Source: an uncultured Bacteroidota bacterium (GTDB taxonomy: Bacteria > Bacteroidota > Bacteroidia > 2-12-FULL-35-15). From it: a stretch of DNA of 64,000 nucleotides. Both the position numbers and the translations under genes were made by a program. The notes below the pieces were generated by a model, which searched no databases, was not told where the DNA came from, and saw nothing but the letters and a program-made list of their open reading frames with translations. Where the stretch lies: assembly GCA_903847205.1 (NCBI GenBank), contig CAINDA010000065.1, forward strand, positions 67,929 through 131,928, in the 5' to 3' direction. Position 1 is the stretch's first letter; each line of letters begins with the position of its first letter. Below, in pieces: positions 16,033 to 31,877 of this stretch.

Positions 16033-16988
16033 TCGTCAATAGAATTATCATTGTTTTCTTTTCGTAAAAATGAGATCAAATTATTTAAAAATAATAAATG
16101 AAGTTCAGCAGATTCTTTATAGGCGGTGAGACTGCAGTTTCCTGTTCTTAAAATTTCATCTGCTGCTATATTTGTTAATTGGCTCTGAAAAGGCATATTA
16201 AATGTTTGTTCTTCAAGGGCCCAATTATTATCAAGTCTGCTTATCCAAACTTTTGCTTCAGGCCCCTCTTCAATACTGTATCTTACAGCTGCGGTATTTA
16301 TATTTATCCTCAAAGAAGGCGTTTTATCCGGAAAAGAAGCGATGAGAAATGTATGTCCGCCTGTCTTTCCCGTTATGGTGCCTGTGAATTCAATATAACC
16401 CGGACGTTTGCTTTCAATAACTGTTTTATCAATTAAATCATTTGATAATACAATGTTATCTGATTTTGTTAAAAATGCAAACAAATCAAGTAAATGAATA
16501 CCGTTGCAGCTCAATCCCCATGAATTTCCAGAAGCATTGAATTCAACATTTCCGGAAAGTTCCTTTTGTAAATTCTGATAAAAAGGAATCATTCTGCGCG
16601 GGCAGTTTACCCAGGCTTTAATTTTTTTTTCAGTCAGCAATTTTTCAACCGCTTGATAATCGTCCGATTTAACAAATAAGAATTTTTCTAAAATTAAATT
16701 CTTAACATTTGAGTTTGCTGTTAACTGCTCAACCACGCGCCTCCGCACTTTAGAATTAGTAGCAACAATAGCAATATCAATTTGTTTTTCAAGCGCAGAA
16801 ATATCCGTATGAAAAGAAATTTTTCCAGTAAAATTGCTGCCAACCTCTTTAAAACGGGCCTCAGCAACTGCTAATGACTCGGCAGAAGAATCAACTACCT
16901 GAATGCAAACCGGATGTTTCATTGAAGCCAGTGCCTGCAAATGCCTGCTTCCTAATTGCCCTGCTCCTATTATTGCTATGTTTTTCAT
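16017..16988 (-). CDS. Gfo/Idh/MocA family NAD(P)-dependent oxidoreductase
   Basis: MKNIAIIGAGQLGSRHLQAL Rossmann N-terminus in a 323-aa protein. It is a paralog-like partner of the downstream gene. Confidence 0.7.
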   Translation of the reverse strand: MKNIAIIGAGQLGSRHLQALASMKHPVCIQVVDSSAESLAVAEARFKEVGSNFTGKISFHTDISALEKQIDIAIVATNSKVRRRVVEQLTANSNVKNLILEKFLFVKSDDYQAVEKLLTEKKIKAWVNCPRRMIPFYQNLQKELSGNVEFNASGNSWGLSCNGIHLLDLFAFLTKSDNIVLSNDLIDKTVIESKRPGYIEFTGTITGKTGGHTFLIASFPDKTPSLRININTAAVRYSIEEGPEAKVWISRLDNNWALEEQTFNMPFQSQLTNIAADEILRTGNCSLTAYKESAELHLLFLNNLISFLRKENNDNSIDECSIT

Positions 16989-17441: not shown

Positions 17442-19907
17442 ATGAAAAAAACTAACATCCTCACAATTTTTCTTTTTGTCGTATTGGCCTTTAATTCAAA
17501 TGGACAACCGGTTATTACTTCATTTACCCCTGCATCCGGTGCAGTCGGCACTTCAGTAACAATTATCGGAAGCAATTTCAGTGCAGTGCCCGCCAATAAT
17601 ATTGTTTATTTTGGTGCAGTAAAGGCTGTTGTAAATACTGCATCAGTCTCTAGTCTAAATGTTACTGTTCCTGTTGATGCATCATACCAGTTTATTACAG
17701 TTACCACGAATAATCTTACGGCCTATTCGTTTCAGCCATTTAATGTGACATTCCAGTGTTTCGGGGCAATAGATTCCAGCTCCTTTTCAGGACATATAGA
17801 TTATACCACAGGAACCGATCCCCGCAGGATTTCAATAGGCGATTTGGACGGAGACGGGAAGTCTGATCTGGCTGTTGCGAACCATATCGGCCAAACCATT
17901 TCAGTATTTAAAAGCACTAGTACAAGCGGAACTATTTCATTTTCACCAAAAGTGGATTACACACCGGGAGGAGCCCCATCATGCGTTACTATCGGCGATT
18001 TAGACGGCGACGGAAAGCCCGAACTTGTTACAGCGAATAATAATAGTAATGATAACGTTTCAGTATTCAAAAACACAAGTACAATCGGTGCTGTTTCCTT
18101 TGCCGCACGTGTTGATTTTATAGCTGGGACTTATCCTTATTTAGTTTCAATTGGAGATTTGGACGGGGATGGGAAACCGGATCTTGCTGTAGTGAATTAT
18201 TCAAACAATACTGTTTCAATATTAAGAAATACAACTTCAGGCGGGATAATTTCATTTGCAGCAAAAGTTGATTACATAACTGGCAGCAGCCCTAACAGTA
18301 TTTCAATTGGTGATTTGGATGGAGATGGAAAACCTGATTTGTCGATAGCAAATCGTTCCTCCAACACAGTTTCTGTCTTAAAAAACTTAAGCACAAACGG
18401 AACAATTTCATTTGCCCCTAAAGTGGACTATATTACCGGCACATCTCCCTGCGGCGCTTCTATAGCTGATTTGGATGGAGATGGAAAGTTTGATCTAATA
18501 ATACCAAATTTGGGTTCTAACACTCTTTCTATATTTAGAAATACAAGTATAAGCGGAACTATTTCCTTCGCTTCGAAGGTGGATTTTAGCGGCGGAGCCG
18601 GTTCAAGCAATATTTCGACCGGTGATTTAAATGGCGACGGAAAGCCTGATATTGCTGTGACAAATTACAATGCCAATAGCATTTCTATATTTAAAAATAC
18701 GAGTACAATCGGGGCCATTTCTTTTTCTCCAAAAACTGACTTTCCGGCCTCTGGCTCCGCAAACCCTGCCTGTGTTTCTATCGGCGATTTAGACGGTGAC
18801 GGGAAACCCGACCTAGCTGTGGCGAGTGAAGGAGCAAGCAGTTCAGGAACTTCTATTTCAATTTTAAAGAATCAGGTAACATGCGCTTCTTCTTCTCCCG
18901 CCGATGCACGTTTTACATCATCGCAACCAGGCTGTACCGGCCAGTTAGAAAACTTTTACAGCGTTATGGCCGGAGTATCTGGTATAACTCATTCATGGAG
19001 TTTTGGTTCAGGAGCGGCCCCGGCCTCATCTGCTTTGGAAAATCCAACCGGAATAGTTTATTCAATAATGGGAGCTAAAATTGTTACACACATTGTTACC
19101 GCAGGCTCTAACTCCGATACAGTTATTAATATAATAACAATCAACCCTTCCCCGGCTGCATCCTTTATTTCCTCAGCCCCCGCATGTAGCGGTAATATTG
19201 TTAATTTCAGCAATTCAGGGAGCACGGGACCAGGGGTAACTTATTCCTGGGATTTTGGCTCTGGGGCATCTCCAAATACTTCTACATCTCTAAATCCAAA
19301 TGGAATAATTTATAATACTGCAGGAACAAAAACAGTTTCTTTATCCATAAGCAATGAATTTGAATGTGTTACTTCCACAACACAAACCATCACTATAAAT
19401 CCTTTACCATTAATAAGTTTATTTCCTTTTACAGCAGTTTGTATGCAGGCTGTACCATTTGCATTAACTGGCGGCCTGCCCACCGGAGGAACATATTCCG
19501 GAACAGCTGTTGATAGTTTGGGTGTATTTCATCCAGGAAGCGCAAATGCAATTCAGACAATTTTTTATACCATAACTAATTCATTTAACTGTTCTAATAT
19601 GCTATCTCAAAACATTACTGTTCATGACTGCACCGGAATTGACGAAAATAATGTCCTGCCGGAAATTACCATTTACCCTAACCCGGCAAATGGAATATTT
19701 AATATTGCAGTAAAAAATTCAGGCTCAAATGAGCTGCAGATTGGCATATTTGATATGCAGGGAAAGGAAGTATTCAATACTTTATATAAAAACACCGGAG
19801 CTGATTTCAATAAACAAATAAGCTTAGAGACTTTGGCAAAAGGCATTTACTATGTTAAACTAAATACAAGATTGAATTCTCAGATTCAAAAATTAATTAT
19901 TCAATAG
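17442..19907 (+). CDS. T9SS-secreted FG-GAP repeat / PKD-domain surface protein
   Basis: It has a signal peptide and an IPT-like N-terminus. There are at least nine FG-GAP repeats of the form ISIGDLDGDGKPDLAVAN, then PKD-like modules. The C-terminus is a T9SS sorting domain (ITIYPNPANGIFNIAV...GIYYVKLNT...KLIIQ). Confidence 0.75.
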   Translation: MKKTNILTIFLFVVLAFNSNGQPVITSFTPASGAVGTSVTIIGSNFSAVPANNIVYFGAVKAVVNTASVSSLNVTVPVDASYQFITVTTNNLTAYSFQPFNVTFQCFGAIDSSSFSGHIDYTTGTDPRRISIGDLDGDGKSDLAVANHIGQTISVFKSTSTSGTISFSPKVDYTPGGAPSCVTIGDLDGDGKPELVTANNNSNDNVSVFKNTSTIGAVSFAARVDFIAGTYPYLVSIGDLDGDGKPDLAVVNYSNNTVSILRNTTSGGIISFAAKVDYITGSSPNSISIGDLDGDGKPDLSIANRSSNTVSVLKNLSTNGTISFAPKVDYITGTSPCGASIADLDGDGKFDLIIPNLGSNTLSIFRNTSISGTISFASKVDFSGGAGSSNISTGDLNGDGKPDIAVTNYNANSISIFKNTSTIGAISFSPKTDFPASGSANPACVSIGDLDGDGKPDLAVASEGASSSGTSISILKNQVTCASSSPADARFTSSQPGCTGQLENFYSVMAGVSGITHSWSFGSGAAPASSALENPTGIVYSIMGAKIVTHIVTAGSNSDTVINIITINPSPAASFISSAPACSGNIVNFSNSGSTGPGVTYSWDFGSGASPNTSTSLNPNGIIYNTAGTKTVSLSISNEFECVTSTTQTITINPLPLISLFPFTAVCMQAVPFALTGGLPTGGTYSGTAVDSLGVFHPGSANAIQTIFYTITNSFNCSNMLSQNITVHDCTGIDENNVLPEITIYPNPANGIFNIAVKNSGSNELQIGIFDMQGKEVFNTLYKNTGADFNKQISLETLAKGIYYVKLNTRLNSQIQKLIIQ

Positions 19908-20296: not shown

Positions 20297-21118
20297 TTGA
20301 TTATGAAAGAAAATAATACCTGGGCGGTTTTACTTTGCGGCGGTTATGGAAGCCGGATGGGGGCCCTAACTAAAACAATTCCAAAACCCCTTATTAAAAT
20401 CCATAACCAGCCGATACTCTGGTATATATTAATGACGCTGCATAAACACGGGATTAAAAATTTAATATTTCCATTAGGTTATAAGGGTGCAATGCTGGAA
20501 AAATACATTAAAAAAAATTTTAAGGATAAAGATTTTAAAATGCATTTTATTGATACAGGTGTTGATTCGACAATTGCAAAACGGCTTGGTAAAATTTCAA
20601 GTGTTATTCCCGAAAATGCCGACTTTCTGTTACTCAACAGCGATACTATTTTTGATTTTGATATTAATGCCATGCTCAGATTACACAGAAGCAAAAAGGC
20701 ATTAATTACCCTCTCTTCTGTTGAAATAATATCTGCATGGGGATTAATACATACTCGAAAAGGGGCGCTTGCCGCTTTTTCAAGAGAAAGAAAAGTGCAT
20801 TACCTAGCTTCAAAAGAAGATGCCGAACTCAAAGGGTATATTTATTCTGGGATTGGATTTATTAATAAAAACGCCTTGAAATATATTGATTTAGAAACCT
20901 GCTACGATTTTGAGCAGGATTTATATTCGAAAATAATAAAAATGAAACGTGCTGCTCATTTCGAAATTGACGGAAGCTGGTTTGCTATTGATACTCCAAA
21001 GGATATTGAAATAATTCATCAGCTGATCGGCGATAAAAGCAACAGGGGCGTAAAAGTTCAGGCAATCAAAAAAAAATTAAGCGTAGCCAGTCCCGCTGTA
21101 AAAAAAAATAAAAAATAA
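20297..21118 (+). CDS. Sugar-1-phosphate nucleotidyltransferase, glucose-1-phosphate cytidylyltransferase (RfbF)-like
   Basis: WAVLLCGGYGSRMG...KPLIKIHNQPILWYILMTLHKHGIKNLIFPLGYKGAMLEKYI parallels the RfbF blocks GGxGTRL...KPKPMVEIGGKPILWHIMK..HGIKDFII.CGYKG. The Lys-rich C-terminal tail is unusual. Confidence 0.65.
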   Translation: MIMKENNTWAVLLCGGYGSRMGALTKTIPKPLIKIHNQPILWYILMTLHKHGIKNLIFPLGYKGAMLEKYIKKNFKDKDFKMHFIDTGVDSTIAKRLGKISSVIPENADFLLLNSDTIFDFDINAMLRLHRSKKALITLSSVEIISAWGLIHTRKGALAAFSRERKVHYLASKEDAELKGYIYSGIGFINKNALKYIDLETCYDFEQDLYSKIIKMKRAAHFEIDGSWFAIDTPKDIEIIHQLIGDKSNRGVKVQAIKKKLSVASPAVKKNKK

Positions 21119-21182
21119 AACCGGCCTTTTTTTATTTTCATTTGAACAAAAAAAAATTAAACTTTGAAAGACATTTCTTGCA

Positions 21183-22313
21183 ATGGATGCTAAAAAATCA
21201 CTTATTTCACGCTACTTATATGAATCGCCATATGTTAAAGACATACAAAAATTCAAAGAAGACATTATTCACAAAAGAGTTATTCCACATCAGGTGGAAG
21301 TACAGCCCGGGCCTTTAGGTAAAAATATATGCTGGCTTAACTGTCCTTATTGTTATGGAAAATCCGCAATAAACTCAACCGAGCGCCTTTCCATCGAAAG
21401 ATATATTGAAGTTTTAAAAAATATTACTGATGGCGGCTGCAAGAAATTTATTTTTGCAGGATGGGCCACCGATCCGCTGTATTATAAACATATTGATGAT
21501 TTGGTTCAGACCGTTGTTGAACGCGACAGCGTTATCGGTTTTAACACACGTGCTATTGACGTAAGCGATAGATTAGTAGAGCTTGTATCGACCCCGTCAC
21601 TGGCCAAGACCAGCTATATGAGTATCAGCGTAAATGCTGGTAATAATGAGAATTACAATAAAGTTAATGCTGCCAGAGGCAAAGCTAAACTGTATGACAG
21701 AGTGCTCAAAAACGTCACCAGCATTGTTACTCATAAGAAAAAAAATAATGCATCGCTCGATATAAGTGTTTCTTATCTGATAAATCAATATACGAACTCA
21801 AAAGAAGAGATAATAAAATTTATTACTGATTTTAAAAATGCAGGCGCTGACCTTATTCGCTTTTCATGCCCGCAGATTCCAAGAGGAGATGTTCCAGGTG
21901 AAAACCCTTTCATACCAACACAAATTGAATATCAGGATTATATTAATGAGTTGACACAGATTATTGAAAGCTTCAGCGATGAAAGCTGCAAAGTAATTGT
22001 TGTGAAGAGTGACGATAAATTTATACAAGCCCGCACAACACCCTGTTTCGCCAGATTTATTTATCCTACCATCGGCTATGATGGCTGGCTGTACCACTGT
22101 TCTCAGTCATCAGGCTCTAACTTCCGCAGTCAGGCTTTGGGAAATCTTGCAACAGATAATTTCTGGGATCTTTTATACGATTATGATGCAAATAATTTAG
22201 ATAATTATTTTTCCTCCTGCTCAAAAAAGATGGAAAACAATAATTGCAGGTGCGATAGAAAAGAACATACCGTTAACAGCCTGATCAAGGACAACGGCTT
22301 TTTTAATAAATAG
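21183..22313 (+). CDS. Radical SAM enzyme of unknown specificity (no cobalamin-binding domain)
   Basis: The CX3CX2C motif is at residues 50-57 (NICWLNCPYCYG). The protein is 376 aa. Additional C-terminal cysteines (YHCSQ..., SCSKKMENNNCRCDRKEH) may bind an auxiliary cluster. It sits inside a nucleotide-sugar operon. Confidence 0.65.
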   Translation: MDAKKSLISRYLYESPYVKDIQKFKEDIIHKRVIPHQVEVQPGPLGKNICWLNCPYCYGKSAINSTERLSIERYIEVLKNITDGGCKKFIFAGWATDPLYYKHIDDLVQTVVERDSVIGFNTRAIDVSDRLVELVSTPSLAKTSYMSISVNAGNNENYNKVNAARGKAKLYDRVLKNVTSIVTHKKKNNASLDISVSYLINQYTNSKEEIIKFITDFKNAGADLIRFSCPQIPRGDVPGENPFIPTQIEYQDYINELTQIIESFSDESCKVIVVKSDDKFIQARTTPCFARFIYPTIGYDGWLYHCSQSSGSNFRSQALGNLATDNFWDLLYDYDANNLDNYFSSCSKKMENNNCRCDRKEHTVNSLIKDNGFFNK

Positions 22314-22348
22314 AGTTTTTCATTTATGAAACAGCAAAATTTTCATCG

Positions 22349-23284
22349 ATGAAAGGCATAGGAGAACAAGGTAATTCATTAAAAGTAGCAATACTCGGAG
22401 CCGGCGGAATCGGCAAAGTGCATGCTCGAATTTTTCATTCGCTGGGTGCAGAGATATATGCAATTTTGGGCAGCAGTACCAAAACAGCATCTGAATCTTC
22501 AAATGATTTAAAACAATCCTTCGGATTTAAACCTAAAGCTTTTGCAAATATTGAGGAGCTTTTGGCAGAGCCTATTGATGCAGTATGCATATGTACACCG
22601 CCTCATTTACATGTTGAACATACCTTAGCTGCTTTTAATAAAGGATTTGCAGTTTTCTGCGAAAAGCCGCTTTTCTGGAATGATAAAATGTCTAAAACTG
22701 ACATGCTGTTAAAACTCGATCAACTAAAATCTCACCCCAGCCGGCGTTTTATGATGAACGCTCCTAATGCATTTTTCTTAGAGGGACTTAATAACAGGAT
22801 AAATGAACCAGGTAAAATTAAATCCTTTAAATTTAGTTTTCATACAAATGGAAATTACAAAGGCAGAGAAATAGGAGTTGATTTACTTACTCATGGATTA
22901 TCGCTGATATATAAACTTTTTGGTCTGCGAAACCTAAGTTTATTTAAGTCCCAGACGGCTGATAACAAATATTCCTGTTCTTTCAGATTCGGCAATTGCA
23001 AAGTAGAATTTGATTTTATGGAAGATCTCAATGGATCTAAATTATTTTTGATTGATATTGACGGACATGTTTTTACCCGCGGACAGGAAGGTTTTGGGGC
23101 TGAGTATAATGTATTTCTTCTTGACTCAAGAACAAATGAAAAAATAAAAATAACTGACCCTTTTCAGCAATCCATTAGTAATTTTTTAGATTATTGTAAA
23201 AGCGGGTCACCCATTGGTCACGATAAATTTGAGGAGGCTGAAGTTATTATGAAAATTATGATTCAAAATTTATTAGTTAGTTGA
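22349..23284 (+). CDS. Gfo/Idh/MocA family oxidoreductase
   Basis: VAILGAGGIGKVHARIFHSLGAEIYAILG Rossmann N-terminus in a 311-aa protein. Confidence 0.65.
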   Translation: MKGIGEQGNSLKVAILGAGGIGKVHARIFHSLGAEIYAILGSSTKTASESSNDLKQSFGFKPKAFANIEELLAEPIDAVCICTPPHLHVEHTLAAFNKGFAVFCEKPLFWNDKMSKTDMLLKLDQLKSHPSRRFMMNAPNAFFLEGLNNRINEPGKIKSFKFSFHTNGNYKGREIGVDLLTHGLSLIYKLFGLRNLSLFKSQTADNKYSCSFRFGNCKVEFDFMEDLNGSKLFLIDIDGHVFTRGQEGFGAEYNVFLLDSRTNEKIKITDPFQQSISNFLDYCKSGSPIGHDKFEEAEVIMKIMIQNLLVS

Positions 23285-23361
23285 AGCAGGGCTTTGTAAA
23301 ATAAAAACAAAAATTTCAAAAACAAAATACACTGGAAATACGAATTAATTAATCTCTTTAA

Positions 23362-24405
23362 ATGAATATACTTATAACTGGCAACCTTGGTTATGTAGGA
23401 CCTAACCTGATTAAATATTTAAAAAAGAATTATCCTGCTGATAAACTTTTCGGTTTTGATATCGGATACTTTAGCAACTGTGTTACAACTCCCTTCAGAA
23501 TGCCTGAAACAATGCTGGAAGCGCAGTACTTTGGCGATGTAAGAAATTTTTCGGAGCACCTGCTCAAAGGGATAGATGCTGTAATTCACTTAGCTGCTAT
23601 TTCAAATGACCCGATGAGCAGCCAGTTTGAAGAAATCACTTATGCCATTAACCACAAAGCAAGTATTGATATTGCAAAAAAAGCAAAGAATGCAGGTGTA
23701 AAAAGTTTTGTATTCGCTTCTAGCTGCAGTGTATATGGCTTTGCAGCCGATGGCGCACGTGTTGAATCATCTGACCTTAATCCGCTAACAGCTTATGCAA
23801 AATCTAAAGTCCTTACAGAAGAGGATTTACAGCCTTTAGCGGATGATAACTTTAAAGTTACCTGCCTGCGTTTTGCCACAGCCTGCGGTATGAGTGACCG
23901 TTTACGTTTAGATCTTGTACTCAATGATTTTGCTGCATCAGCAATTGCAAATAAAAAAATCTCTATACTCAGCGACGGCACGCCATGGCGTCCGCTCATC
24001 AATACGCTTGATATGGCAAGAGCAATGGGCTGGTCTGTAAATAGAGAAACCTCGAAAGGAGGAAATTTTTTACTTATGAATGTAGGCAGCAACGTTTGGA
24101 ACTACCAGGTAAAAGAAATTGCAGGATTTGTAAAAGAGCAATTTCCTGAGGTAGAAATTAGCATCAATCCAAATGCGCAGCCTGATAAACGGTCATACCG
24201 TGTGAATTTCGATTTCTTTAATTCTTTAGCGCCTGATTTTACTCCTAAAATCACTATACAGCAGAGCATTGCTGATTTACTTAATGGATTAAATGCAATT
24301 AAGTTTAATGATGCAGATTTCAGGCAGTCGAATTTAATCCGCCTCAATATGATCAACAGTCTGAAAACAAATAATTTTATTGACGATAATATTAATTGGG
24401 TATAA
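23362..24405 (+). CDS. Extended-SDR NAD-dependent sugar epimerase/dehydratase (candidate NDP-hexose 4,6-dehydratase)
   Basis: MNILITGNLGYVGPNLIKYL glycine-rich N-terminus. It also has IHLAAISND, FASSCSVYG and a YAKSK catalytic YxxxK. Length is 347 aa. Confidence 0.65.
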   Translation: MNILITGNLGYVGPNLIKYLKKNYPADKLFGFDIGYFSNCVTTPFRMPETMLEAQYFGDVRNFSEHLLKGIDAVIHLAAISNDPMSSQFEEITYAINHKASIDIAKKAKNAGVKSFVFASSCSVYGFAADGARVESSDLNPLTAYAKSKVLTEEDLQPLADDNFKVTCLRFATACGMSDRLRLDLVLNDFAASAIANKKISILSDGTPWRPLINTLDMARAMGWSVNRETSKGGNFLLMNVGSNVWNYQVKEIAGFVKEQFPEVEISINPNAQPDKRSYRVNFDFFNSLAPDFTPKITIQQSIADLLNGLNAIKFNDADFRQSNLIRLNMINSLKTNNFIDDNINWV

Positions 24406-24408
24406 TCT

Positions 24409-24960
24409 ATGGACTTTATTAAAACACCCTTTGCTGGTTTATTCTTAATTCAGGCAAAACCAATTAAAGATGACAGAGGTTTGTTTGGCAGGACATTTTG
24501 TAAAAAAGAATTTGCTGAAATTAATTTCACAAAAGATTTTGTTCAATTTAACCATTCATTGACTTTAAAAAAAGGTACCGTCAGAGGGCTGCATTTTCAA
24601 CTTCCGCCCTATTCCGAAACAAAATTAATCAGATGTGTTCAAGGAAAAATTTATGATACGGCAGTTGATTTAAGAAAAAATTCGCCCACATTTTTGCAGC
24701 ATTTCGACACAGAGCTTAGTGCTGAAAGCATGATGTCTATATTAATTCCAGAAGGTTTTGCTCACGGCTATCAAACACTGGAAGACAATTCTGCTTTTAT
24801 CTATCACCATACACAATTTTATACACCAGGCTCCGAATCAGGGATAAGGTATGACGATCCTTTACTGAAAATAAAGTGGCCTCTGCCGATTGTAAATGTA
24901 AGTGAAAAAGACAAAAGCCAAAACTTATTAGAAACTAATTTTAAAGGAATAGAACTATGA
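24409..24960 (+). CDS. dTDP/CDP-4-dehydro-6-deoxyhexose 3,5-epimerase (RmlC-like cupin)
   Basis: GLFLIQAKPIKDDRGLFGRTF, RGLHFQ, KLIRCVQGKIYDTAVDLRKNSPTF and EGFAHGYQTL are RmlC-family blocks. Length is 183 aa. Confidence 0.7.
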   Translation: MDFIKTPFAGLFLIQAKPIKDDRGLFGRTFCKKEFAEINFTKDFVQFNHSLTLKKGTVRGLHFQLPPYSETKLIRCVQGKIYDTAVDLRKNSPTFLQHFDTELSAESMMSILIPEGFAHGYQTLEDNSAFIYHHTQFYTPGSESGIRYDDPLLKIKWPLPIVNVSEKDKSQNLLETNFKGIEL

Positions 24961-26183
24961 ACTGCAGGTTTTGTAAAAATGAGTTGAAACATGTTTTTAT
25001 TGATTTAGGAAATTCTCCTCCATCAAATTCTTTCTTAACGCCCGCTCAATTAAATGTGCCGGAAAGCTTTTTCCCTTTAAAAATTTTCGTCTGCGAAAAA
25101 TGTTTTTTAGTACAGGTAGATGAATATAAAAAAGCTGCCGAAATTTTTGACAGTGAGTATGCCTATTTTTCTTCCGTTTCAAGGAGCTGGCTTGAACACT
25201 CAAAAAAATATACCGAAAAAATGATCTCCGAATTCGGGATTAATTACCAATCACAGGTAATTGAAATTGCTTCAAATGATGGCTATCTGCTTCAATATTT
25301 TAAAGAAAAAGGAATACCTGTTTTGGGAATAGAACCAACAGAATCAACGGCAAACGCAGCCAAAGCAAAAGGGATTGAATCAATAGGAGAATTTTTTGGT
25401 GAGCGATTAGCAAGCCAGCTCAGCAATGAAGGCAGAAAAGCCGATTTACTTTTAGGAAATAATGTATTAGCGCATGTTCCGGACATTAATGATTTTGTTA
25501 AAGGCTTACAAATTGCTTTAAAAGCGGATGGAATAATTACAATGGAATTTCCTCATTTGCTTCAATTAGTTAAGAACAATCAGTTCGATACAATTTACCA
25601 CGAACATTTTTCGTATTTATCTTTTACAACGGTGAAAAGAATTTTTGAAAAACATAATCTTGAAATGTTCCATGTAGAAGAACTGCCTACACACGGCGGT
25701 TCATTAAGAATTTTTGCCAAACAGAAAACATCCGCTTTAAACCCTGTAAGAAGCACTGTAAATGCATTGCTTGTAAAAGAAGATCAGGCTGGAATAAATG
25801 GTCTGGAATTTTATAAAGGTTTTGATAAGAATGCCGCAAAAGTTAAACTTGATTTTCTTGAGTTTTTGATACATGCTAAAAAGGAAGGCAAAAAAATTGC
25901 AGCTTACGGCGCAGCAGCAAAAGGTAGCACCATGTTAAACTTCTGCGGAATTAAAAATGACTGGATAGAATATGTAGTTGACGGCGCAGCCAGCAAGCAG
26001 GGAAAATATATGCCTGCCAGCCACATACCAATTGTTAATGAAGTAAAAATAAAAGAACACAAACCCGACTATATAATTATTCTGCCCTGGAATATTAAGG
26101 AAGAAATAATGAATCAATTAAGTTATGTAAAAGGATGGGGATGCATCTTTGTAACTGTCATACCTGATTTGCAGAAATTTTAA
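24957..26183 (+). CDS. NDP-hexose C-methyltransferase (TylC3/EryBIII-like)
   Basis: An N-terminal Cys4 zinc ribbon (CRFCKN...CEKCFLVQ) precedes a class I SAM-MTase core (VIEIASNDGYLL, LGIEP). The C-terminus has the C-methyltransferase domain signature (IAAYGAAAKGSTMLNF...YIIILPWNIKEEI). Length is 408 aa. Confidence 0.7.
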   Translation: MNCRFCKNELKHVFIDLGNSPPSNSFLTPAQLNVPESFFPLKIFVCEKCFLVQVDEYKKAAEIFDSEYAYFSSVSRSWLEHSKKYTEKMISEFGINYQSQVIEIASNDGYLLQYFKEKGIPVLGIEPTESTANAAKAKGIESIGEFFGERLASQLSNEGRKADLLLGNNVLAHVPDINDFVKGLQIALKADGIITMEFPHLLQLVKNNQFDTIYHEHFSYLSFTTVKRIFEKHNLEMFHVEELPTHGGSLRIFAKQKTSALNPVRSTVNALLVKEDQAGINGLEFYKGFDKNAAKVKLDFLEFLIHAKKEGKKIAAYGAAAKGSTMLNFCGIKNDWIEYVVDGAASKQGKYMPASHIPIVNEVKIKEHKPDYIIILPWNIKEEIMNQLSYVKGWGCIFVTVIPDLQKF

Positions 26184-26333
26184 AAAAAAAATTGTACAAG
26201 ATATATGGTTTTGCATAGAACCTTGTTCAGCTTAAATAAGCAAGTTTATAACACATTAGTAATTAGATGATAATTATCTTTTCAGAAATTCAAGTACTAT
26301 TTAATAATTTTCATTATTAATCTATTTAATTAT

Positions 26334-27314
26334 ATGAGCAAAAAAAACAAATCCACACCAATAGAAGAAGAAGCTGCCGCATTTGACAAAAGAATGACCG
26401 AAAGAAGCAGTGCCGGCTTCATTCCTGATTTAAGGGATGCTGTAAAATGCGATTATTTTTATAAAAGTTTTTTCCGTGACCCTTATTTTATGAAATTGTA
26501 CCAGGGGCAGATGACTGATTTGTTCGTCAACGGCCTTGAAAAACATAAAGGAAAAAAATTAACAATTTTAGATGTGGGATGCGGGCCAGGGCTGAGTACC
26601 CTGGAAATAGCAAGAAACGGGCACAATGTTACCGCAATTGACATTTCAGAAAAATCTATTGAACTCGCAAAAAAAGCGCTTGCCAATAATCGATACAAGA
26701 AAAATTTCGGCTTGTTAAATTATCAGGTATTACCTTTTGAAGAAGTGAAGGGAAAATTTGACGCAATTATATTTTCTGGTGCACTGCATCATTTTCCAAA
26801 CCTCAAGGATGTGGTAAAAAAATCCGTAACCCTTCTTAATAAAGATGGCATTTTACTTTGCTATGAACCTTGGCATGAAAAATGGCGAAAACAAGATGCC
26901 GCTCAAGTGGCACTGTTCAGAATGATTTTGTCCATCACAGGATTTTGGTATGAAAAAAATCTTTTTAAAAACACCAAAAATAAGCCGAAAATGTTTGATG
27001 AATATGTTGATGATATTCACCTTGAATATGTTTCGGAGAAAGATAAAAATGAACCTGACGGACAGTCTCCAAATGATAATGCTGCCAGCGGGGATGAAAT
27101 TATAAAATGCCTGAATAAATATTTTGTTCAGAAAGAATTAAAATCTGGATTTTCTTTTATTTACAGATTCTTGGGAGGCATGAGAGGGTCAGATGAAATC
27201 TTGCACCGCCTGGCCGATTTGTTCACAGTTTATGATCAATATGCTGTTGAAAATGGATGGATGAATTCAAATGCATTTTTTTACATCGGAACAAAAAACA
27301 ATATTCAGAAATAA
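26334..27314 (+). CDS. Class I SAM-dependent methyltransferase
   Basis: ILDVGCGPGLSTLEIARNGHNVTAIDISEKSIELAKK is SAM-binding motif I. Length is 326 aa. Confidence 0.65.
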   Translation: MSKKNKSTPIEEEAAAFDKRMTERSSAGFIPDLRDAVKCDYFYKSFFRDPYFMKLYQGQMTDLFVNGLEKHKGKKLTILDVGCGPGLSTLEIARNGHNVTAIDISEKSIELAKKALANNRYKKNFGLLNYQVLPFEEVKGKFDAIIFSGALHHFPNLKDVVKKSVTLLNKDGILLCYEPWHEKWRKQDAAQVALFRMILSITGFWYEKNLFKNTKNKPKMFDEYVDDIHLEYVSEKDKNEPDGQSPNDNAASGDEIIKCLNKYFVQKELKSGFSFIYRFLGGMRGSDEILHRLADLFTVYDQYAVENGWMNSNAFFYIGTKNNIQK

Positions 27315-28218
27315 AATAATTCCGATCGTTTCATCTTACCTATTTTACAGAAATTTTAAAATAATAATTTTGAAAATACTAGTTACCGGAACGTCAGGAT
27401 TTGTAGGCAGATATGTTTTAAGTGAATTGTTAAAATATCAGCATTCTATTGTGATTGCAGCTGCAGATATTTCAAAACAAAATTTTCCAAAACAAAATGA
27501 TACCGTTGAAATAAAAGAATTCAATTTAGATTTTGTGAATAGCTACGGAAATCTGATGGACTATTTTAATAATCCGGATATGCTTATTCACATTGCATGG
27601 AAAGGCCTTCCGAATTTTAACGCACAGATACATGAAGAGCAATTAACTAGTCACTGTGATTTCATAAAAAAATTAGTTAAGAACGGCATAAAAAAAATTA
27701 CTGTTACCGGAACCTGTTTAGAATATGGATTACAGGAAGGCTGCCTGATGGAAACAATGGATATTAAACCAAGCCTAACCTACCCTATTGCAAAAGCCGA
27801 ACTATGCAATTTTATTAGTAATTTACAAGAGCTTCATGATTTTGAATTTAACTGGCTTCGATTATTTTATATGTATGGCGAAGGCCAAAATCCAAAATCA
27901 ATTCTTTCGCAGTTAGAAAATGCAATTAAAAACAATGACAAAATTTTTAATATGTCCAAAGGAGATCAGCAAAGAGATTATCTCCCAATAGAAAAAGTTG
28001 CTGAATATATTGTAAAAACGGCTTTGCAGAACAAGATTAAAGGTATTGTAAATTGCTGTTCAGGAAAACCAATAACAATCCTTAAATTAGTTCAGGATTA
28101 TTTAGATGAACATAAAGCAGATATAAAATTAAATTTAGGTTATTTCCCTTATCCCGATTATGAACCATTTGCCTTTTACGGTGATGCAAAAAAATTAAAT
28201 GCATCAATAGGTAATTAA
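27271..28218 (+). CDS. NAD-dependent epimerase/dehydratase family protein (candidate 4-ketoreductase)
   Basis: Rossmann start LKILVTGTSGFVGRYVL. The true start is probably the in-frame TTG at 27370, which would avoid a 44-nt overlap with the upstream gene. A YPIAKAE YxxxK-like motif is present. Confidence 0.6.
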   Translation: MHFFTSEQKTIFRNKIIPIVSSYLFYRNFKIIILKILVTGTSGFVGRYVLSELLKYQHSIVIAAADISKQNFPKQNDTVEIKEFNLDFVNSYGNLMDYFNNPDMLIHIAWKGLPNFNAQIHEEQLTSHCDFIKKLVKNGIKKITVTGTCLEYGLQEGCLMETMDIKPSLTYPIAKAELCNFISNLQELHDFEFNWLRLFYMYGEGQNPKSILSQLENAIKNNDKIFNMSKGDQQRDYLPIEKVAEYIVKTALQNKIKGIVNCCSGKPITILKLVQDYLDEHKADIKLNLGYFPYPDYEPFAFYGDAKKLNASIGN

Positions 28219-28229
28219 ATTAAACAAAA

Positions 28230-29306
28230 ATGGAAGACGAATTAAAAGCCTTATCAAAAGGAAACAAAGTTATTTTCAAGCAAAATTCTGTTCCTCTTTT
28301 TCAAAATAAAGTTTACCGTACAAAAGAGGAAGCACTCAATGCCCCTACAGGCGAAGTACAGCTTGCTGAATCTGCACAAACAGGTTTTATTTTTAATAAA
28401 ACATTTGATAACAGTTTGATGGACTATGATGCCGACTATCATAATGAACAATCGAATTCGCCGATATTTAAAGAACATCTGCAATATGTTTTTGATCTTA
28501 TTAAGAGATATGATCTTACTGGCAAAAAAGTAGTAGAAATAGGATGCGGGAAAGCTCACTTTTTTAATCTTATGAAAGAAAACGGAGTTAACTGCATTGG
28601 GTTTGATCCTGCCTATGAAGGCAATGACACAGCCATTATAAAAGATTATTTCAGTGACAAATATGACATTAACGGCGATTTAATTATACTCAGGCATACA
28701 CTTGAACACATAGAAAATCCACATTTATTTATTTCCGACATCGCAAAAGCAAACAAGTACAGAGGATATATTTTTATTGAAGTGCCTACTTTTGACTGGA
28801 TAAATAAAAAACAGGCTTTTTGGGATGTTTTTTATGAACATTGTAATTATTTTACTGAAACAAGCCTGGGCTCTATGTTTAATAAAGCTGAAACAGGGAG
28901 CTTTTTCGGGGGACAGTATATTTACTGCTATTCAGCCCTGAAAGAATTAAAAACTACTATTGAAAAGAAATCTGAAGGCTCAATTGAAAATATATCATTC
29001 GATTCAAGCGTTTTAAAATGGGGGAAATTTCTTGACGAGAAAAAAAATATCGCAGTGTGGGGTGCAGGTGCAAAAGGCTCAACTTTTTTAAATTTACTGG
29101 ATCAGAAAAAAGAAAAAATAAAATTTGTTATTGATATTAATCCCGAAAAGCAAAACAAATTTATTGCCCGCACATGTCATCCAATATATTCTCCAAAAGC
29201 GCTTGAAGGCAGCGGTATTGAAAACATTTTAATAATGAATGAAAATTATATTGACGAAATAAAAGCTGCAGTAAATAATCCAAACATTAATTTTTATTGT
29301 TTATAG
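28230..29306 (+). CDS. SAM-dependent methyltransferase with C-methyltransferase C-terminal domain (second C-MT-like gene, lacks zinc ribbon)
   Basis: SAM motif VVEIGCGKAHFFNLMKENGVNCIGFDP. The C-terminus IAVWGAGAKGSTFLNLL...FVIDINPEKQNKF aligns with the C-terminus of the 24957 gene product (IAAYGAAAKGSTMLNF...). Confidence 0.55.
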   Translation: MEDELKALSKGNKVIFKQNSVPLFQNKVYRTKEEALNAPTGEVQLAESAQTGFIFNKTFDNSLMDYDADYHNEQSNSPIFKEHLQYVFDLIKRYDLTGKKVVEIGCGKAHFFNLMKENGVNCIGFDPAYEGNDTAIIKDYFSDKYDINGDLIILRHTLEHIENPHLFISDIAKANKYRGYIFIEVPTFDWINKKQAFWDVFYEHCNYFTETSLGSMFNKAETGSFFGGQYIYCYSALKELKTTIEKKSEGSIENISFDSSVLKWGKFLDEKKNIAVWGAGAKGSTFLNLLDQKKEKIKFVIDINPEKQNKFIARTCHPIYSPKALEGSGIENILIMNENYIDEIKAAVNNPNINFYCL

Positions 29307-29310: not shown

Positions 29311-30348
29311 ATGCTGAAAAAAATAACACTGATAACAATATCAAGAAACCGGCATCCCTATCTCGAGAGAATTATTGATTATTATGCGAACAGCGCCATT
29401 CAAGTGCTTATTGCAGATGACAGTAAAGAAAAATATTCAAAAGTCCTGCCTCCCAATACTGCGTATTACCAATATTCAGGAGTGCCTTATTTATTCAGGT
29501 TTGATGATATAATTCAAAAAGTAAAAACTCCTTACGTTGTATTTTGTGCCGATGACGATTTCATTGTTCCTGAAGGAATTTCAAAATGCGTTTCATTCTT
29601 AGATACTAATCCCGATTATAACTCTGCTCACGGGCAATATGTTTTTTTTTATCACAGCAAAAATAAACTGTTTTACACACCAGGTTATTTAGTTACAGTT
29701 GGGTGTGATATTAATGAAGATACAGCAATGGGCCGGACTGAAAGGTATAAAAAACTCCCTATTCAATTATGCTATTGTGTTCACAGAACAGAAAATTTGA
29801 AGCTGACATTTAACACTTTAAAAAATTCTGTAAATAATTTAGGCCTGTTTGAAACTATAATAGGTATGAAAACTTTAATTGAGGGGAAACATAAAGTATT
29901 ACCTGTTTTTTATTCTGCGCGGCAAAGTTTATACAGCTCCGCAGGCAGCGGCGCCAGCATTGATGTTTGCGCTTCAAAGGATGAATATAAAAATGAATAT
30001 AATTCCTATCTTGTTGAAATGGCTTCCCTGCTCTCAAAAAAAGATAATATCCCTTTTGATGAAGCATTTGCTTTTTTTAAACAATTGATGGTTGAATTTG
30101 TTGATTATAGATATATTTCAAAACCATCTTCAAAAAAAATGATGATGAAGTTTATAAAAAAAACAATTCCTTTTGGCCTGCGTAAAGGAGCACGTCATTA
30201 TTTATTACTTCTTCAGGAACAAAACAAGAAAAAGAATAATATTCAATTATCTCAAAAAATAAATAGTTTTCCTTTTATCACAGGCAGTCCTGAAAATAAA
30301 GAACTTCAAAAAATAGAGAACTGTATTTTAAAATATAATGTAAAGTAA
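29311..30348 (+). CDS. Putative GT-A fold glycosyltransferase (GT2-like)
   Basis: The N-terminus ITLITISRNRHPYLERIIDYY...VLIADDS resembles GT2 (IPTYNR...DDGS). FCADDDF is a possible DxD motif. Length is 345 aa. The match is weak. Confidence 0.4.
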   Translation: MLKKITLITISRNRHPYLERIIDYYANSAIQVLIADDSKEKYSKVLPPNTAYYQYSGVPYLFRFDDIIQKVKTPYVVFCADDDFIVPEGISKCVSFLDTNPDYNSAHGQYVFFYHSKNKLFYTPGYLVTVGCDINEDTAMGRTERYKKLPIQLCYCVHRTENLKLTFNTLKNSVNNLGLFETIIGMKTLIEGKHKVLPVFYSARQSLYSSAGSGASIDVCASKDEYKNEYNSYLVEMASLLSKKDNIPFDEAFAFFKQLMVEFVDYRYISKPSSKKMMMKFIKKTIPFGLRKGARHYLLLLQEQNKKKNNIQLSQKINSFPFITGSPENKELQKIENCILKYNVK

Positions 30349-30395: not shown

Positions 30396-31877
30396 TTGGG
30401 AATTATAGAAAAGCAGGCAACCAAAAACTTAATATACTCTTATCTTGGAGCAGGGCTTGGTTTTGTTACTTTAATGTGGTCGTCGCATTTATTAAGTCCG
30501 GATGAAAACGGATTAACGCGCATTTTACTTTCAATCACAGCTCTCTTTTCTCAATTTGCAAGTTTAGGATTCAATGCAGTAACCTCTCGTTTTTTTCCTT
30601 ATTTTAGAAATAAAGAAAAAGGCCATCATGGCTACCTGTATTATGGCATCATCACCACTTTAGCCGGATTTACGCTATGTTACATTACATTCTATTTTTT
30701 CAAAGATCAAATAATTGCCGATAATCAACAAAAATCAAAGTTATTTGCCGACTATCTTTTTTACTTAATGCCTCTTACCTTCTTCACTTTATTTTTTGGT
30801 TTATTCGATTACTATTTAAGAGCCTGTTATAGATCAGTTATCGGCTCCTCTTCAAAAGATTTAACCCAGCGCATTTTAATTCTGGCAGTCCTATTTTTAT
30901 ATTTTTTAAAAATAATCAACTTTAACATTTTTGTTTTTTTATATGTTGCAGCAACTTGTATTCCTACTTTAATTCTTCTCTATTATATTGTAAAACTTGG
31001 CGAATGGCATGTAAAACCTGTTAGAGGATTTGTGAGCAAAGAGCTTAGAAAAGAAATGATAAACCTTAGTTTATATGCAATAATAATAGGTAGTTCCGGA
31101 ATTTTAATGTCGAGTATTGATGTAATAATGGTGAATCAAAAATTGGGCCTCAAACAAACTGGTATTTACGGCATTGCGTTTTATTTCGGCAGCATCATAA
31201 TTATTCCATCACGCTCATTACTGCGGATTGCGATGGGGATTGTTGCTGATGCATTTAAAAAAAATGATCTGGAAGAAATCAGCCGTTTGTATAAAAAATC
31301 CTGCAACAGCCAGCTGACAATCGGTTTATTACTTTTTATCGGAATATGGTGTAATATAAATAACATTATGGCTTTATTGCCTCCGGAATATGCAGGAGGT
31401 AAAAACGTAATACTGTTTATCAGTTTAGGCAATTTAATAGATATGGGAACCGGCTTTAATTACATCATAATGATGACTTCAAAACATTACAGGTTTGATG
31501 GAATATTTATGATCATTATTTTATTTTTAACAATATTTTTAAACTATCTTTTGATTCCCATCTACGGAATCACAGGATCAGCAATAGCAACAGCAACAAC
31601 CATTGCAGCTTATAATATTATGAGATGGCTGTTTTTACTTTTCAAATTTAAAATGCAGCCTTACGATTTAAATAATGTAAAAATTATTGTTATCGCCGCG
31701 ATAGCTTTTTTACCCGGGTATTTTATGCCGTACTTAAATTTTCTGGTGATTGATATAGCCGTGAGAAGCGGGATTGTAGGAGGATTATTTATTCTCTTAC
31801 TTTTAAAAACGGAAGCAGCCCCCGAAATAAATATCAAAATCAGAAAAAACCTGAAACGATTTTCAATTCATATTTAG
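30396..31877 (+). CDS. Wzx-like oligosaccharide flippase (MOP superfamily polysaccharide biosynthesis protein)
   Basis: A 493-aa protein with ~12-14 TM helices. GLTRILLSITALFSQFASLGFNAVTSRFFPYF is a Wzx-type N-terminal block. The predicted start is TTG. It is a clear paralog of the gene at 59764..61233. Confidence 0.65.
   Translation: MGIIEKQATKNLIYSYLGAGLGFVTLMWSSHLLSPDENGLTRILLSITALFSQFASLGFNAVTSRFFPYFRNKEKGHHGYLYYGIITTLAGFTLCYITFYFFKDQIIADNQQKSKLFADYLFYLMPLTFFTLFFGLFDYYLRACYRSVIGSSSKDLTQRILILAVLFLYFLKIINFNIFVFLYVAATCIPTLILLYYIVKLGEWHVKPVRGFVSKELRKEMINLSLYAIIIGSSGILMSSIDVIMVNQKLGLKQTGIYGIAFYFGSIIIIPSRSLLRIAMGIVADAFKKNDLEEISRLYKKSCNSQLTIGLLLFIGIWCNINNIMALLPPEYAGGKNVILFISLGNLIDMGTGFNYIIMMTSKHYRFDGIFMIIILFLTIFLNYLLIPIYGITGSAIATATTIAAYNIMRWLFLLFKFKMQPYDLNNVKIIVIAAIAFLPGYFMPYLNFLVIDIAVRSGIVGGLFILLLLKTEAAPEINIKIRKNLKRFSIHI

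What the first reader, a model, noticed from the sequence alone, without database searches (positions are those of the whole stretch)
21183..22313. Stand-alone radical SAM enzyme embedded in a nucleotide-sugar operon
The CX3CX2C motif sits at residues 50-57 with no N-terminal cobalamin-binding domain, so it is not a class B methylase. A C-terminal Cys cluster (CSKKMENNNCRC) could ligate an auxiliary Fe-S cluster in a SPASM/twitch-like arrangement. Radical SAM enzymes acting on NDP-sugars (DesII-type deaminase/dehydratase, AprD4-type dehydratase, epimerases) are rare and mostly known from antibiotic pathways. One in a cell-surface glycan locus is unusual.
Basis: partly seen in the sequence, partly recalled or inferred. 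Interest (0 to 1): 0.6.

Follow-up and report, generated by a model that had tools for sequence, protein, structure and literature searches.

The report
Uncharacterised radical SAM sugar-nucleotide enzyme
This is a real gene for an iron-sulfur "radical SAM" enzyme from a widespread but unstudied family that always sits beside (or is fused to) a sugar-activating enzyme, and probably performs a difficult radical step in making an unusual cell-surface sugar.

Summary
It belongs to an unnamed radical SAM family. Only the generic Pfam model passes its cut-off, and no NCBIfam model does. The closest solved structures are DesII, the TDP-sugar radical deaminase, and the twitch/SPASM enzymes SkfB and SuiB. 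The C-terminal domain carries the twitch signature C288-x12-G301-x4-C306 plus C355-x-C357.

Across 119 related loci the gene is tied to a sugar-1-phosphate nucleotidyltransferase. That gene is present in 39/39 loci with full flanks and is fused to the rSAM in several proteins. A small NADP-type GFO/IDH/MocA oxidoreductase is present in 28/39, and a TylC3-type 3-C-methyltransferase in 29/39. Many loci hold a bona fide CDP-glucose 4,6-dehydratase, so the nucleotide is probably CDP.

My best reading is that the enzyme abstracts a ring hydrogen from a CDP-hexose to give a keto sugar, which the GFO partner then reduces. The net result would be deoxygenation (about 0.4). Plain dehydrogenation is the main rival.

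It is not a housekeeping rSAM. The family is common in marine bacteria, including SAR11. I judge it a new variant of a known kind. The function is untested.

The parts
20297..21118 (+). Sugar-1-phosphate nucleotidyltransferase (glucose-1-P cytidylyltransferase-like). The likely true start is the ATG at 20303. This is the universal partner of the rSAM.
   Evidence: Pfam NTP_transferase scores 71 bits. NCBIfam G1P_cyt_trans scores 104 bits, below its cut-off. The best PDB match is RfbF 1tzf. The gene is present in 39/39 fully flanked loci and lies directly upstream in 50/93. It is fused to the rSAM in P0011, P0051, P0063, P0069, P0070, P0072 and P0121.
21183..22313 (+). Radical SAM enzyme, 376 aa, the subject of the finding. 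It has a DesII-like core plus a twitch-type C-terminal domain.
21330..21353 (+). Codons for C50-x3-C54-x2-C57, the radical SAM [4Fe-4S] binding motif.
   Evidence: Translation. The motif is invariant in alignment A1.
22044..22253 (+). Codons for residues 288-357: C288-x12-G301-x4-C306 ... C355-R-C357-D-R-K. This is the putative auxiliary-cluster (twitch) region.
   Evidence: All four Cys and G301 are invariant in the core family. C288, C306 and R359 are invariant, and C357 and G301 nearly so, in relatives down to 19% identity. The region aligns to the Pfam-recognised SPASM region of P0238. The model shows a beta-hairpin plus helices here.
22349..23284 (+). Small GFO/IDH/MocA oxidoreductase, the usual immediate partner. 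It is probably an NADPH-dependent ketoreductase.
   Evidence: Pfam GFO_IDH_MocA scores 74 bits. It is directly adjacent to the rSAM in 69 of about 98 loci and present in 28/39 fully flanked loci. The EKP and DLLPH motifs are conserved, and there is no acidic residue at the end of beta2.
23362..24405 (+). Extended SDR of the 'SSCSVYG' type. By motif it is not a 4,6-dehydratase. It may be a C4-dehydrogenase or an epimerase.
   Evidence: The best PDB hit is 6vo6. I recall this entry as Cj1427, a GDP-heptose C4-dehydrogenase. The Cj1427 function is documented in PMC10680097.
24409..24960 (+). RmlC-type 3,5-epimerase.
   Evidence: TIGR01221 scores 170.8 bits, above its cut-off of 155.75.
24957..26183 (+). 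NDP-hexose 3-C-methyltransferase (TylC3/TcaB9/KijD1 type).
   Evidence: Pfam Methyltransf_13 and Methyltransf_14 hits. PDB 4rv9 matches at E 7.8e-69. The gene is present in 29/39 fully flanked loci.
26334..27314 (+). Class I SAM methyltransferase, probably an O-methyltransferase.
27271..28218 (+). Short SDR of the 'GTCLEYG' type, a likely sugar 4-ketoreductase. The true start is probably internal.
28230..29306 (+). Second, divergent C-methyltransferase-like protein.
   Evidence: Pfam Methyltransf_23 plus the C-terminal domain of Methyltransf_14.
29311..30348 (+). Glycosyltransferase (TIGR04440).
   Evidence: 171 bits against a cut-off of 70.
30396..31877 (+). Wzx-like polysaccharide flippase, the last gene of the same-strand run. 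A terminator-like hairpin at 31921-31953 lies downstream.
   Evidence: Pfam Polysacc_synt. Hairpin.

Best explanation
The gene encodes a two-cluster (twitch-type) radical SAM enzyme that acts on the CDP-hexose made by the neighbouring nucleotidyltransferase. SAM is cleaved reductively at the C50/C54/C57 cluster to give a 5'-deoxyadenosyl radical. That radical removes a hydrogen from a carbinol carbon of the sugar ring, with C3 the best guess by analogy with DesII. The resulting ketyl-type radical loses the neighbouring hydroxyl. It is then reduced by one electron, delivered through the C288/C306/C355/C357 cluster, to give a CDP-keto-deoxy-hexose. The GFO/IDH/MocA partner encoded 35 nt downstream reduces that ketone with NADPH. 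The pair therefore deoxygenates a CDP-hexose directly, following AprD4/AprD3 logic on a DesII-like scaffold. The modified sugar then passes to the second module for C4 oxidation, 3,5-epimerisation, 3-C-methylation, O-methylation and 4-reduction, followed by transfer and flipping to the cell surface.

Shown: the gene, its motifs, its fold class, and its conserved and sometimes fused partnership with the nucleotidyltransferase and the GFO enzyme.

Inferred: that the substrate is a CDP-hexose, and that the enzyme generates a ketone. I put about 0.75 on this general statement.

Guess: that the reaction is dehydration rather than dehydrogenation, and which carbon is attacked. The confidence given below applies to this specific version.
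For: - Radical SAM core and motif.
- Confident model: pLDDT 89.5, pTM 0.90.
- The profile alignment to DesII starts before the cluster motif.
- Twitch signature CX12GX4C plus CXC is invariant. It is homologous to a Pfam-SPASM region in P0238.
- NTase-rSAM fusion proteins exist. The NTase is present in 39/39 fully flanked loci.
- GFO is directly adjacent in 69 of about 98 loci, often with a gap of 3-30 nt or an overlap. It has an NADP-type beta2 end and intact EKP/DLLPH motifs.
- Minimal cassettes of [NTase-rSAM fusion]-GFO-GT2 lack any 4,6-dehydratase.
- IMG/VR loci hold only rSAM-NTase-3-C-methyltransferase-short SDR. There the rSAM is the only candidate source of the ketone that a TylC3-type methyltransferase needs.
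- Where GFO is missing, a DegT aminotransferase or another SDR follows the rSAM. That fits a keto product.
- A bona fide CDP-glucose 4,6-dehydratase occurs in many loci (TIGR02622 at 477 and 409 bits, cut-off 278). This points to CDP as the nucleotide.
- Precedent for a radical SAM dehydratase with an NADPH reductase partner: AprD4/AprD3 (PMC5461906).
- DesII abstracts H-3 (PMC11434129).
Against: - No biochemical data exist for any member.
- The known radical dehydratases and lyases on sugars (AprD4, DesII, BlsE) have no auxiliary cluster. The cluster-bearing twitch enzymes on sugar-like substrates (BtrN, SpeY) are dehydrogenases; this is from my own knowledge.
- DesII given a 4-hydroxy substrate dehydrogenates rather than dehydrates. 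The computed barriers are 6.7 against 23 kcal/mol.
- Gene order gives conflicting hints. rSAM-GFO sits right after the NTase in some loci and after the final ketoreductase in others.
- GFO is absent from 11/39 fully flanked loci.
- The nucleotidyltransferase is below the cut-off for the CDP-glucose equivalog (104 against 300 bits). The nucleotide and sugar are therefore inferred, not shown.
- I could not read model coordinates, so I did not check that the four Cys are close enough to hold one cluster.
Confidence: 0.4

Rival explanations
1. Twitch radical SAM dehydrogenase (BtrN/SpeY-like, or DesII acting on a hydroxy substrate). The enzyme oxidises one secondary alcohol of the CDP-hexose (C2, C3 or C4) to a ketone, and the auxiliary cluster carries the electron away. 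The ketone is then reduced from the other face by GFO (net epimerisation), transaminated by DegT, or used as the activating group for the C-methyltransferase.
For: Four invariant Cys sit in a twitch arrangement. DesII oxidises TDP-quinovose at C3 with a low computed barrier. DegT lies next to the rSAM in 9/98 loci and is present in 14/39. A distant relative is an rSAM-SPASM-DegT fusion. The viral loci need a ketone source for the methyltransferase.
Confidence: 0.3
2. True DesII-type lyase. A 4-amino-4,6-dideoxy sugar made by a 4,6-dehydratase plus a DegT aminotransferase is deaminated to a 3-keto-4,6-dideoxy sugar, which GFO then reduces.
For: DesII is the closest solved structure. Some loci carry exactly NTase, rSAM, a 4,6-dehydratase-like SDR and DegT, for example L054, L099 and L118.
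Against: This window has no aminotransferase in the operon. The only DegT, at 44820, is a LegC-family enzyme belonging to the nonulosonic-acid cluster. The window also has no 4,6-dehydratase. DegT is absent from 25/39 loci. TIGR04426 scores 31.8 against a cut-off of 450. DesII has no auxiliary cluster.
Confidence: 0.1
3. Radical SAM epimerase (HygY/NeoN-like). Hydrogen is abstracted and returned to the opposite face by a protein donor, with no keto intermediate.
For: Twitch radical SAM sugar epimerases exist (HygY, from my own knowledge). The loci make stereochemically unusual sugars.
Against: The only invariant Cys are the seven assigned to the two clusters, so no spare Cys is available as H donor. 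This reading does not explain the tightly coupled GFO reductase.
Confidence: 0.1
4. Not a sugar enzyme. It would be a peptide (RiPP) maturase like SkfB or SuiB, or a housekeeping rSAM that merely lies in the locus.
Against: No precursor-peptide gene and no RiPP recognition element are evident. The N-terminus is only 49 residues. The protein is fused to a nucleotidyltransferase in several lineages, and the sugar-gene neighbourhood is conserved over 119 loci. All housekeeping models fall far below their cut-offs.
Confidence: 0.03

Closest known systems
DesII (TDP-4-amino-4,6-dideoxy-D-glucose deaminase, desosamine pathway; PDB 8HZV/8HZY)
   Different: Identity is only 12-14%. The TIGR04426 score is far below its cut-off. 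DesII has a six-helix N-terminal domain of about 130 aa and a single cluster. This family has 49 residues before the motif and four invariant extra Cys. Its context is CDP rather than TDP. Its partner is a GFO reductase rather than the DesI/DesV aminotransferases. It sits in a surface glycan locus rather than an antibiotic pathway.
AprD4/AprD3 (radical SAM 1,2-diol dehydratase plus NADPH reductase, apramycin C3' deoxygenation)
   Same: Both have the two-gene logic of a radical SAM enzyme plus a dedicated NAD(P)H reductase acting on a sugar.
BtrN and SpeY (twitch radical SAM dehydrogenases of aminoglycoside and spectinomycin pathways)
   Same: They share a single auxiliary-cluster twitch domain with the Cys pattern C...C...(CxxC or CxC), and they act on carbohydrate-like alcohols.
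SkfB / SuiB / anSME (SPASM-twitch peptide-modifying enzymes)
   Different: They act on peptides and have peptide-binding N-terminal domains or a second auxiliary cluster. This family lacks the CX2CX5CX3C motif and has a sugar-nucleotide context.
BlsE (cytosylglucuronate decarboxylase)
   Different: BlsE catalyses a decarboxylation and has no conserved auxiliary Cys (my knowledge). Its pathway is different.

Membership tests
Radical SAM superfamily | CX3CX2C motif binding the SAM-cleaving [4Fe-4S] cluster | tested here: met
   C50, C54 and C57 are invariant in 31 homologues.
Radical SAM superfamily | Pfam PF04055 above its gathering score, and a partial TIM-barrel fold | tested here: met
Radical SAM superfamily | Reductive cleavage of SAM to 5'-deoxyadenosine | not testable with these tools
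   Needs anaerobic biochemistry.
SPASM/twitch subfamily | CX9-15GX4C signature after the barrel | tested here: met
   C288-x12-G301-x4-C306 is invariant in the core family. C288 and C306 are invariant, and G301 nearly so, in relatives down to 19% identity.
SPASM/twitch subfamily | Pfam SPASM (PF13186) hit | tested here: inconclusive
   The window protein gives no hit even at E<=1. Six of 31 family members give sub-threshold hits, the best at 1.3e-3. The distant relative P0238 passes (34.5 bits against 21.5) in the region that aligns with residues 288-357 at 99.4% hhalign probability.
SPASM/twitch subfamily | Second auxiliary-cluster motif CX2CX5CX3C (full SPASM) | tested here: not met
   Only C355-x-C357 follows. 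The domain is therefore twitch-type (one auxiliary cluster at most), not full SPASM.
SPASM/twitch subfamily | C-terminal beta-hairpin plus helix domain, and actual binding of an auxiliary Fe-S cluster | tested here: inconclusive
DesII family (TIGR04426) | Equivalog HMM score of at least 450 bits | tested here: not met
   31.8 bits.
DesII family (TIGR04426) | Six-helix N-terminal domain, a single cluster, and a DesI-type 4-aminotransferase in the pathway | tested here: not met
   Only 49 residues precede the motif. There are four extra invariant Cys. The operon has no aminotransferase.
Class B cobalamin-dependent radical SAM methylases | N-terminal B12-binding domain (PF02310) | tested here: not met
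   No hit, and no room for such a domain.
AprD4-type diol dehydratases | Sequence or fold relatedness to AprD4 | tested here: not met
Housekeeping rSAM (QueE, NrdG, PflA) | Equivalog HMM above its cut-off | tested here: not met

The most novel reading that the evidence does not exclude
NTase + twitch rSAM + GFO reductase would be a self-contained, previously undescribed route that deoxygenates a CDP-hexose directly by radical chemistry. It would not need the 4-keto-6-deoxy intermediate on which all textbook deoxysugar pathways depend. The route would be used widely by marine bacteria, including SAR11, and apparently by some phages, to diversify surface glycans.
Probability: 0.3. Interest if true: 0.8.

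Novelty: new variant of a known kind. Interest (0 to 1): 0.55.

Why it matters
Radical SAM chemistry on nucleotide sugars is known from only a handful of antibiotic pathways, such as DesII. This finding points to a large, unnamed family doing such chemistry in ordinary cell-surface glycan loci. The family has 64 clusters at 50% identity below E 1e-30, and hundreds of metagenomic copies. It occurs in the hypervariable surface-sugar regions of SAR11, among the most abundant bacteria in the ocean, and on contigs classed as viral.

The fused nucleotidyltransferase names the likely substrate class, so the function can be tested directly in vitro. If the pair deoxygenates CDP-hexoses, it adds a new entry point to deoxysugar biosynthesis and a new tool for glyco-engineering. 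If it is a dehydrogenase, it extends the BtrN type to nucleotide sugars. Either result would allow thousands of genes now labelled only "radical SAM protein" to be annotated.

Tried and rejected
1. I first thought rSAM + GFO replaces the 4,6-dehydratase as the source of NDP-4-keto-6-deoxyhexose, prompted by locus L031. I rejected this as a general rule. Many loci carry a bona fide CDP-glucose 4,6-dehydratase beside the pair.

2. I tried using gene order as a guide to reaction order. It is contradictory: order A places rSAM-GFO right after the NTase, and order B places it after the last ketoreductase.

3. I looked for a named family. NCBIfam gives only far sub-threshold hits for the window protein and for ten distant relatives. 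The PDB sequence search gives only SkfB and DesII, both weakly.

4. I ran six full-text literature searches for radical SAM together with nucleotide-sugar, CDP-glucose, C-methyltransferase or SAR11 terms. None found a paper on this family. The nearest is a report of uncharacterised radical SAM genes beside rfbF on the Brachyspira hyodysenteriae plasmid (PMC4267127). tblastn of the plasmid collection found no close homologue there.

5. The phage GenBank collection gave only one marginal hit.

7. The genomic context of the rSAM-DegT fusion P0238 could not be used, because the contig is only 2.7 kb.

8. I checked for a terminator between the NTase and the rSAM. There is only a weak A-U hairpin with a z-score of -0.89. 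The consensus scan places no terminator-like site on the + strand in the gaps either side of the rSAM gene.

9. The sigma-70 promoter scan is uninformative, with 44 sites found against 49.7 expected. Bacteroidota also use a different promoter consensus.

Full report
**Observation**

The window has an ATG-to-stop ORF at exactly 21183-22313 on the + strand, encoding 376 aa. Counting along the translation puts CWLNCPYC at C50/C54/C57. Pfam recognises only the generic Radical_SAM domain, at 49.1 bits against a cut-off of 29.5, over residues 48-193. There is no B12-binding or SPASM hit. NCBIfam gives 15 hits, all far below their cut-offs. The best are the tungsten-cofactor maturase at 42 bits (cut-off 380) and DesII at 31.8 (cut-off 450). 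NrdG2 scores 20.5 (cut-off 131) and QueE 16.9 (cut-off 260). The housekeeping homologies that would have refuted the reading are absent.

**The family**

A search of 5.8 billion proteins found 358 relatives, the closest at 80% identity. Sources name them only as "radical SAM protein" or "MoaA/NifB/PqqE/SkfB family". A profile search of 1.84 billion cluster representatives found 64 clusters below 1e-30 and 355 below 1e-10.

In 31 aligned members sharing 45-80% identity, seven Cys are invariant: C50, C54, C57, C288, C306, C355 and C357. In relatives down to 19% identity, C288, C306 and R359 remain invariant, and C357 and G301 nearly so. C355 is replaced there by a CxxC spacing or is absent.

C288-x12-G301-x4-C306 matches the CX9-15GX4C signature of SPASM/twitch domains. 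The CX2CX5CX3C motif for a second auxiliary cluster is absent, so at most one auxiliary cluster can be bound, which makes it a twitch domain. The window protein gives no Pfam SPASM hit. Six of 31 members give sub-threshold hits. A distant relative, P0238, passes the SPASM cut-off in the stretch that aligns to residues 288-357, with 99.4% hhalign probability.

**Structure**

AlphaFold2 run on the family alignment gave a confident model, with pLDDT 89.5 and pTM 0.90. It shows a partial barrel followed by a beta-hairpin (296-297 and 302-304) and helices.

- Foldseek: DesII ranks first, with E 7.6e-12 and TMq 0.64.
- Family profile against PDB sequences: only SkfB (4.7e-5) and DesII (3.7e-4) are found. 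The DesII alignment begins before the cluster motif.

According to its structure paper, DesII has a six-helix N-terminal domain, one cluster, and a C-terminal beta-hairpin plus two helices. It abstracts H-3 of the TDP-sugar (PMC11434129). The window protein is thus DesII-like in fold. It differs in having a short N-terminus and in keeping the Cys of an auxiliary cluster.

**Context in the window**

The host is a member of the Bacteroidota, shown by a T9SS-sorted protein at 17442-19907. From 20297 to 31877, eleven same-strand genes follow each other with gaps from -44 to 150 nt:

- nucleotidyltransferase
- rSAM
- GFO/IDH/MocA oxidoreductase
- extended SDR
- RmlC-type epimerase (above its cut-off)
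- TylC3/TcaB9-type 3-C-methyltransferase (E 7.8e-69 to PDB 4rv9)
- methyltransferase
- short SDR
- second C-methyltransferase-like protein
- TIGR04440 glycosyltransferase
- Wzx-like flippase

There is no convincing terminator on either side of the rSAM gene. The SDR at 23362-24405 has the motif SSCSVYG rather than the T-D-E/K of 4,6-dehydratases. tblastn finds no CDP-glucose 4,6-dehydratase anywhere in the 64 kb.

**Context elsewhere**

I collected 30 loci from species-representative genomes. They are mostly marine: SAR11/Pelagibacter, Rhodospirillaceae, Myxococcales and gammaproteobacterial MAGs. I added 80 metagenome loci out of 258 confirmed stretches, 4 IMG/VR loci, and 5 loci retrieved through exact-protein look-ups. 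I labelled their genes by tblastn with reference proteins.

In the 39 loci with at least 5 kb on both sides, the counts are:

| Gene | Loci |
|---|---|
| Nucleotidyltransferase | 39 |
| 3-C-methyltransferase | 29 |
| GFO oxidoreductase | 28 |
| RmlC-like epimerase | 19 |
| Divergent 4,6-dehydratase-like SDR | 16 |
| CDP-glucose 4,6-dehydratase-type SDR | 15 |
| DegT aminotransferase | 14 |
| SSCS-type SDR | 13 |

Representatives of the dehydratase type score 477 and 409 bits on TIGR02622, against a cut-off of 278.

The gene immediately downstream of the rSAM is GFO in 54 of 98 loci. The gene immediately upstream is the nucleotidyltransferase in 50 of 93, and GFO in a further 15. Several proteins of about 640 aa are nucleotidyltransferase-rSAM fusions, and the GFO gene overlaps their 3' end.

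In L034 and L035 the cassette is fusion, GFO, GT2, with no 4,6-dehydratase nearby. The IMG/VR loci L037-L039 hold overlapping genes for rSAM, nucleotidyltransferase, 3-C-methyltransferase and a short reductase-like SDR. They have no other enzyme that could create the ketone the methyltransferase needs. Where GFO is missing, a DegT aminotransferase or another SDR usually follows the rSAM.

The GFO partner keeps the EKP and DLLPH motifs. It has no acidic residue at the end of beta2. From general knowledge of Rossmann folds, I read this as a preference for NADP(H), and therefore as a reductase role.

**Interpretation**

Three things are solid:

- The gene is real and conserved.
- It encodes a DesII-like radical SAM enzyme with a twitch-type Cys set.
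- It works with a sugar-1-phosphate nucleotidyltransferase and usually with a GFO oxidoreductase, within pathways for C-methylated and often aminated surface sugars.

The nucleotide is probably CDP. This rests on the co-occurring CDP-glucose 4,6-dehydratases and on the RfbF-like N-terminus of the transferase.

The general mechanism I commit to, at about 0.75, is as follows. A hydrogen is abstracted from a carbinol carbon of the CDP-hexose. This leads to a keto sugar, which GFO then reduces or DegT transaminates.

The specific version I favour, at about 0.4, is dehydration followed by reduction, which amounts to a direct deoxygenation. My reasons are these:

- The only established pairing of a sugar-modifying rSAM with a dedicated NAD(P)H reductase is AprD4/AprD3 (PMC5461906).
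- The minimal NTase-rSAM-GFO-GT cassettes must produce something that cheap epimerases cannot.
- A net epimerisation would be redundant with the epimerases already present in the loci.

The main rival, at about 0.3, is a BtrN-like dehydrogenation. It is favoured by the auxiliary cluster and by the behaviour of DesII on hydroxy substrates. A true DesII-type deamination is unlikely for this window, because the operon has no aminotransferase and the window has no 4,6-dehydratase. An epimerase would lack a spare conserved Cys to act as hydrogen donor. A peptide maturase is excluded by the context and by the fusions.

**Comparison and novelty**

The protein fails the membership tests for DesII, AprD4, class B methylases and housekeeping rSAMs. 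It meets the tests for the radical SAM superfamily and, by motif and fold, for the twitch subgroup. None of the six full-text literature searches aimed at this family turned up a study of it. The library covers open-access papers only, so a subscription-journal report cannot be excluded.

I rate it a new variant of a known kind: a nucleotide-sugar radical SAM enzyme with a retained twitch cluster, a nucleotidyltransferase partner that is fused in some lineages, and a GFO reductase partner. The family is common in marine surface-glycan loci.

**Limits**

No biochemistry exists for any member. I could not read model coordinates to check the Cys geometry. The substrate, the site of attack and the reaction type are inferences. 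The gene labels in the 119 loci come from tblastn with reference proteins, not from curated annotation.

Noticed in passing
window 44820-54623 (+): A second glycan cluster for a legionaminic-acid-type nonulosonic acid. It holds a LegC-family aminotransferase (549 bits, cut-off 420), a metallophosphoesterase, an ATP-grasp protein, an SDR, a hexapeptide acetyltransferase, NeuB, a NeuC-like 2-epimerase, a CBS-domain nucleotidyltransferase and a CMP-sugar synthetase.
   Followed up: partly
P0148 (712 aa) and P0199 (904 aa), distant relatives: Both have a TIR domain fused N-terminally to an rSAM-SPASM module of this superfamily. This architecture suggests an anti-phage or signalling role unrelated to sugar synthesis.
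   Followed up: no
P0238 (784 aa), distant relative: An rSAM-SPASM domain is fused to a C-terminal DegT/DnrJ/EryC1 aminotransferase. This is a Rosetta-stone link between this superfamily and sugar transamination. Its contig is too short to give any context.
   Followed up: partly
L036-L039 (IMG/VR contigs), rSAM at 8001-9116: Contigs classed as viral carry rSAM + nucleotidyltransferase + 3-C-methyltransferase (+ short SDR), with overlapping genes. In L038, the one flank I scanned, the genes outside the cassette have no Pfam hits. This may be a phage-borne sugar pathway. I did not verify that the contigs are truly viral.
   Followed up: partly
L031 1-1362; L034 13933-17103; L035 8375-9934 and 13918-15420: Genes for B12-binding (class B) radical SAM enzymes flank the NTase-rSAM fusion cassettes. 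This suggests further radical C-methylation of the same sugar.
   Followed up: no
window 28230-29306 (+): A second, divergent C-methyltransferase-like gene lies in the same operon. It combines Methyltransf_23 with the C-terminal domain of Methyltransf_14 and lacks the N-terminal zinc domain. The sugar may therefore carry two C-methyl groups or a two-carbon branch.
   Followed up: no
window 15076-16988 (-): Two more GFO/IDH/MocA oxidoreductase genes overlap each other on the opposite strand upstream of the operon. An alpha/beta hydrolase gene lies next to them.
   Followed up: no
window 31921-31953: A 15-bp perfect hairpin with a T-run lies between the convergent flippase gene and the YfhO-like membrane protein gene at 32041-34563(-). 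It is the only strong terminator-like site in the region.
   Followed up: no
window 20297-20303: The nucleotidyltransferase ORF opens with TTG at 20297, and an ATG follows two codons later. A public gene call for the identical contig starts 45 codons further in and would cut off the GGxGxR nucleotide-binding loop. That call is probably a mis-annotated start.
   Followed up: partly
P0172 (1631 aa) and P0195 (6428 aa): Very large proteins contain a domain of this rSAM superfamily, at residues 182-495 and 4080-4360. I did not examine their architecture.
   Followed up: no
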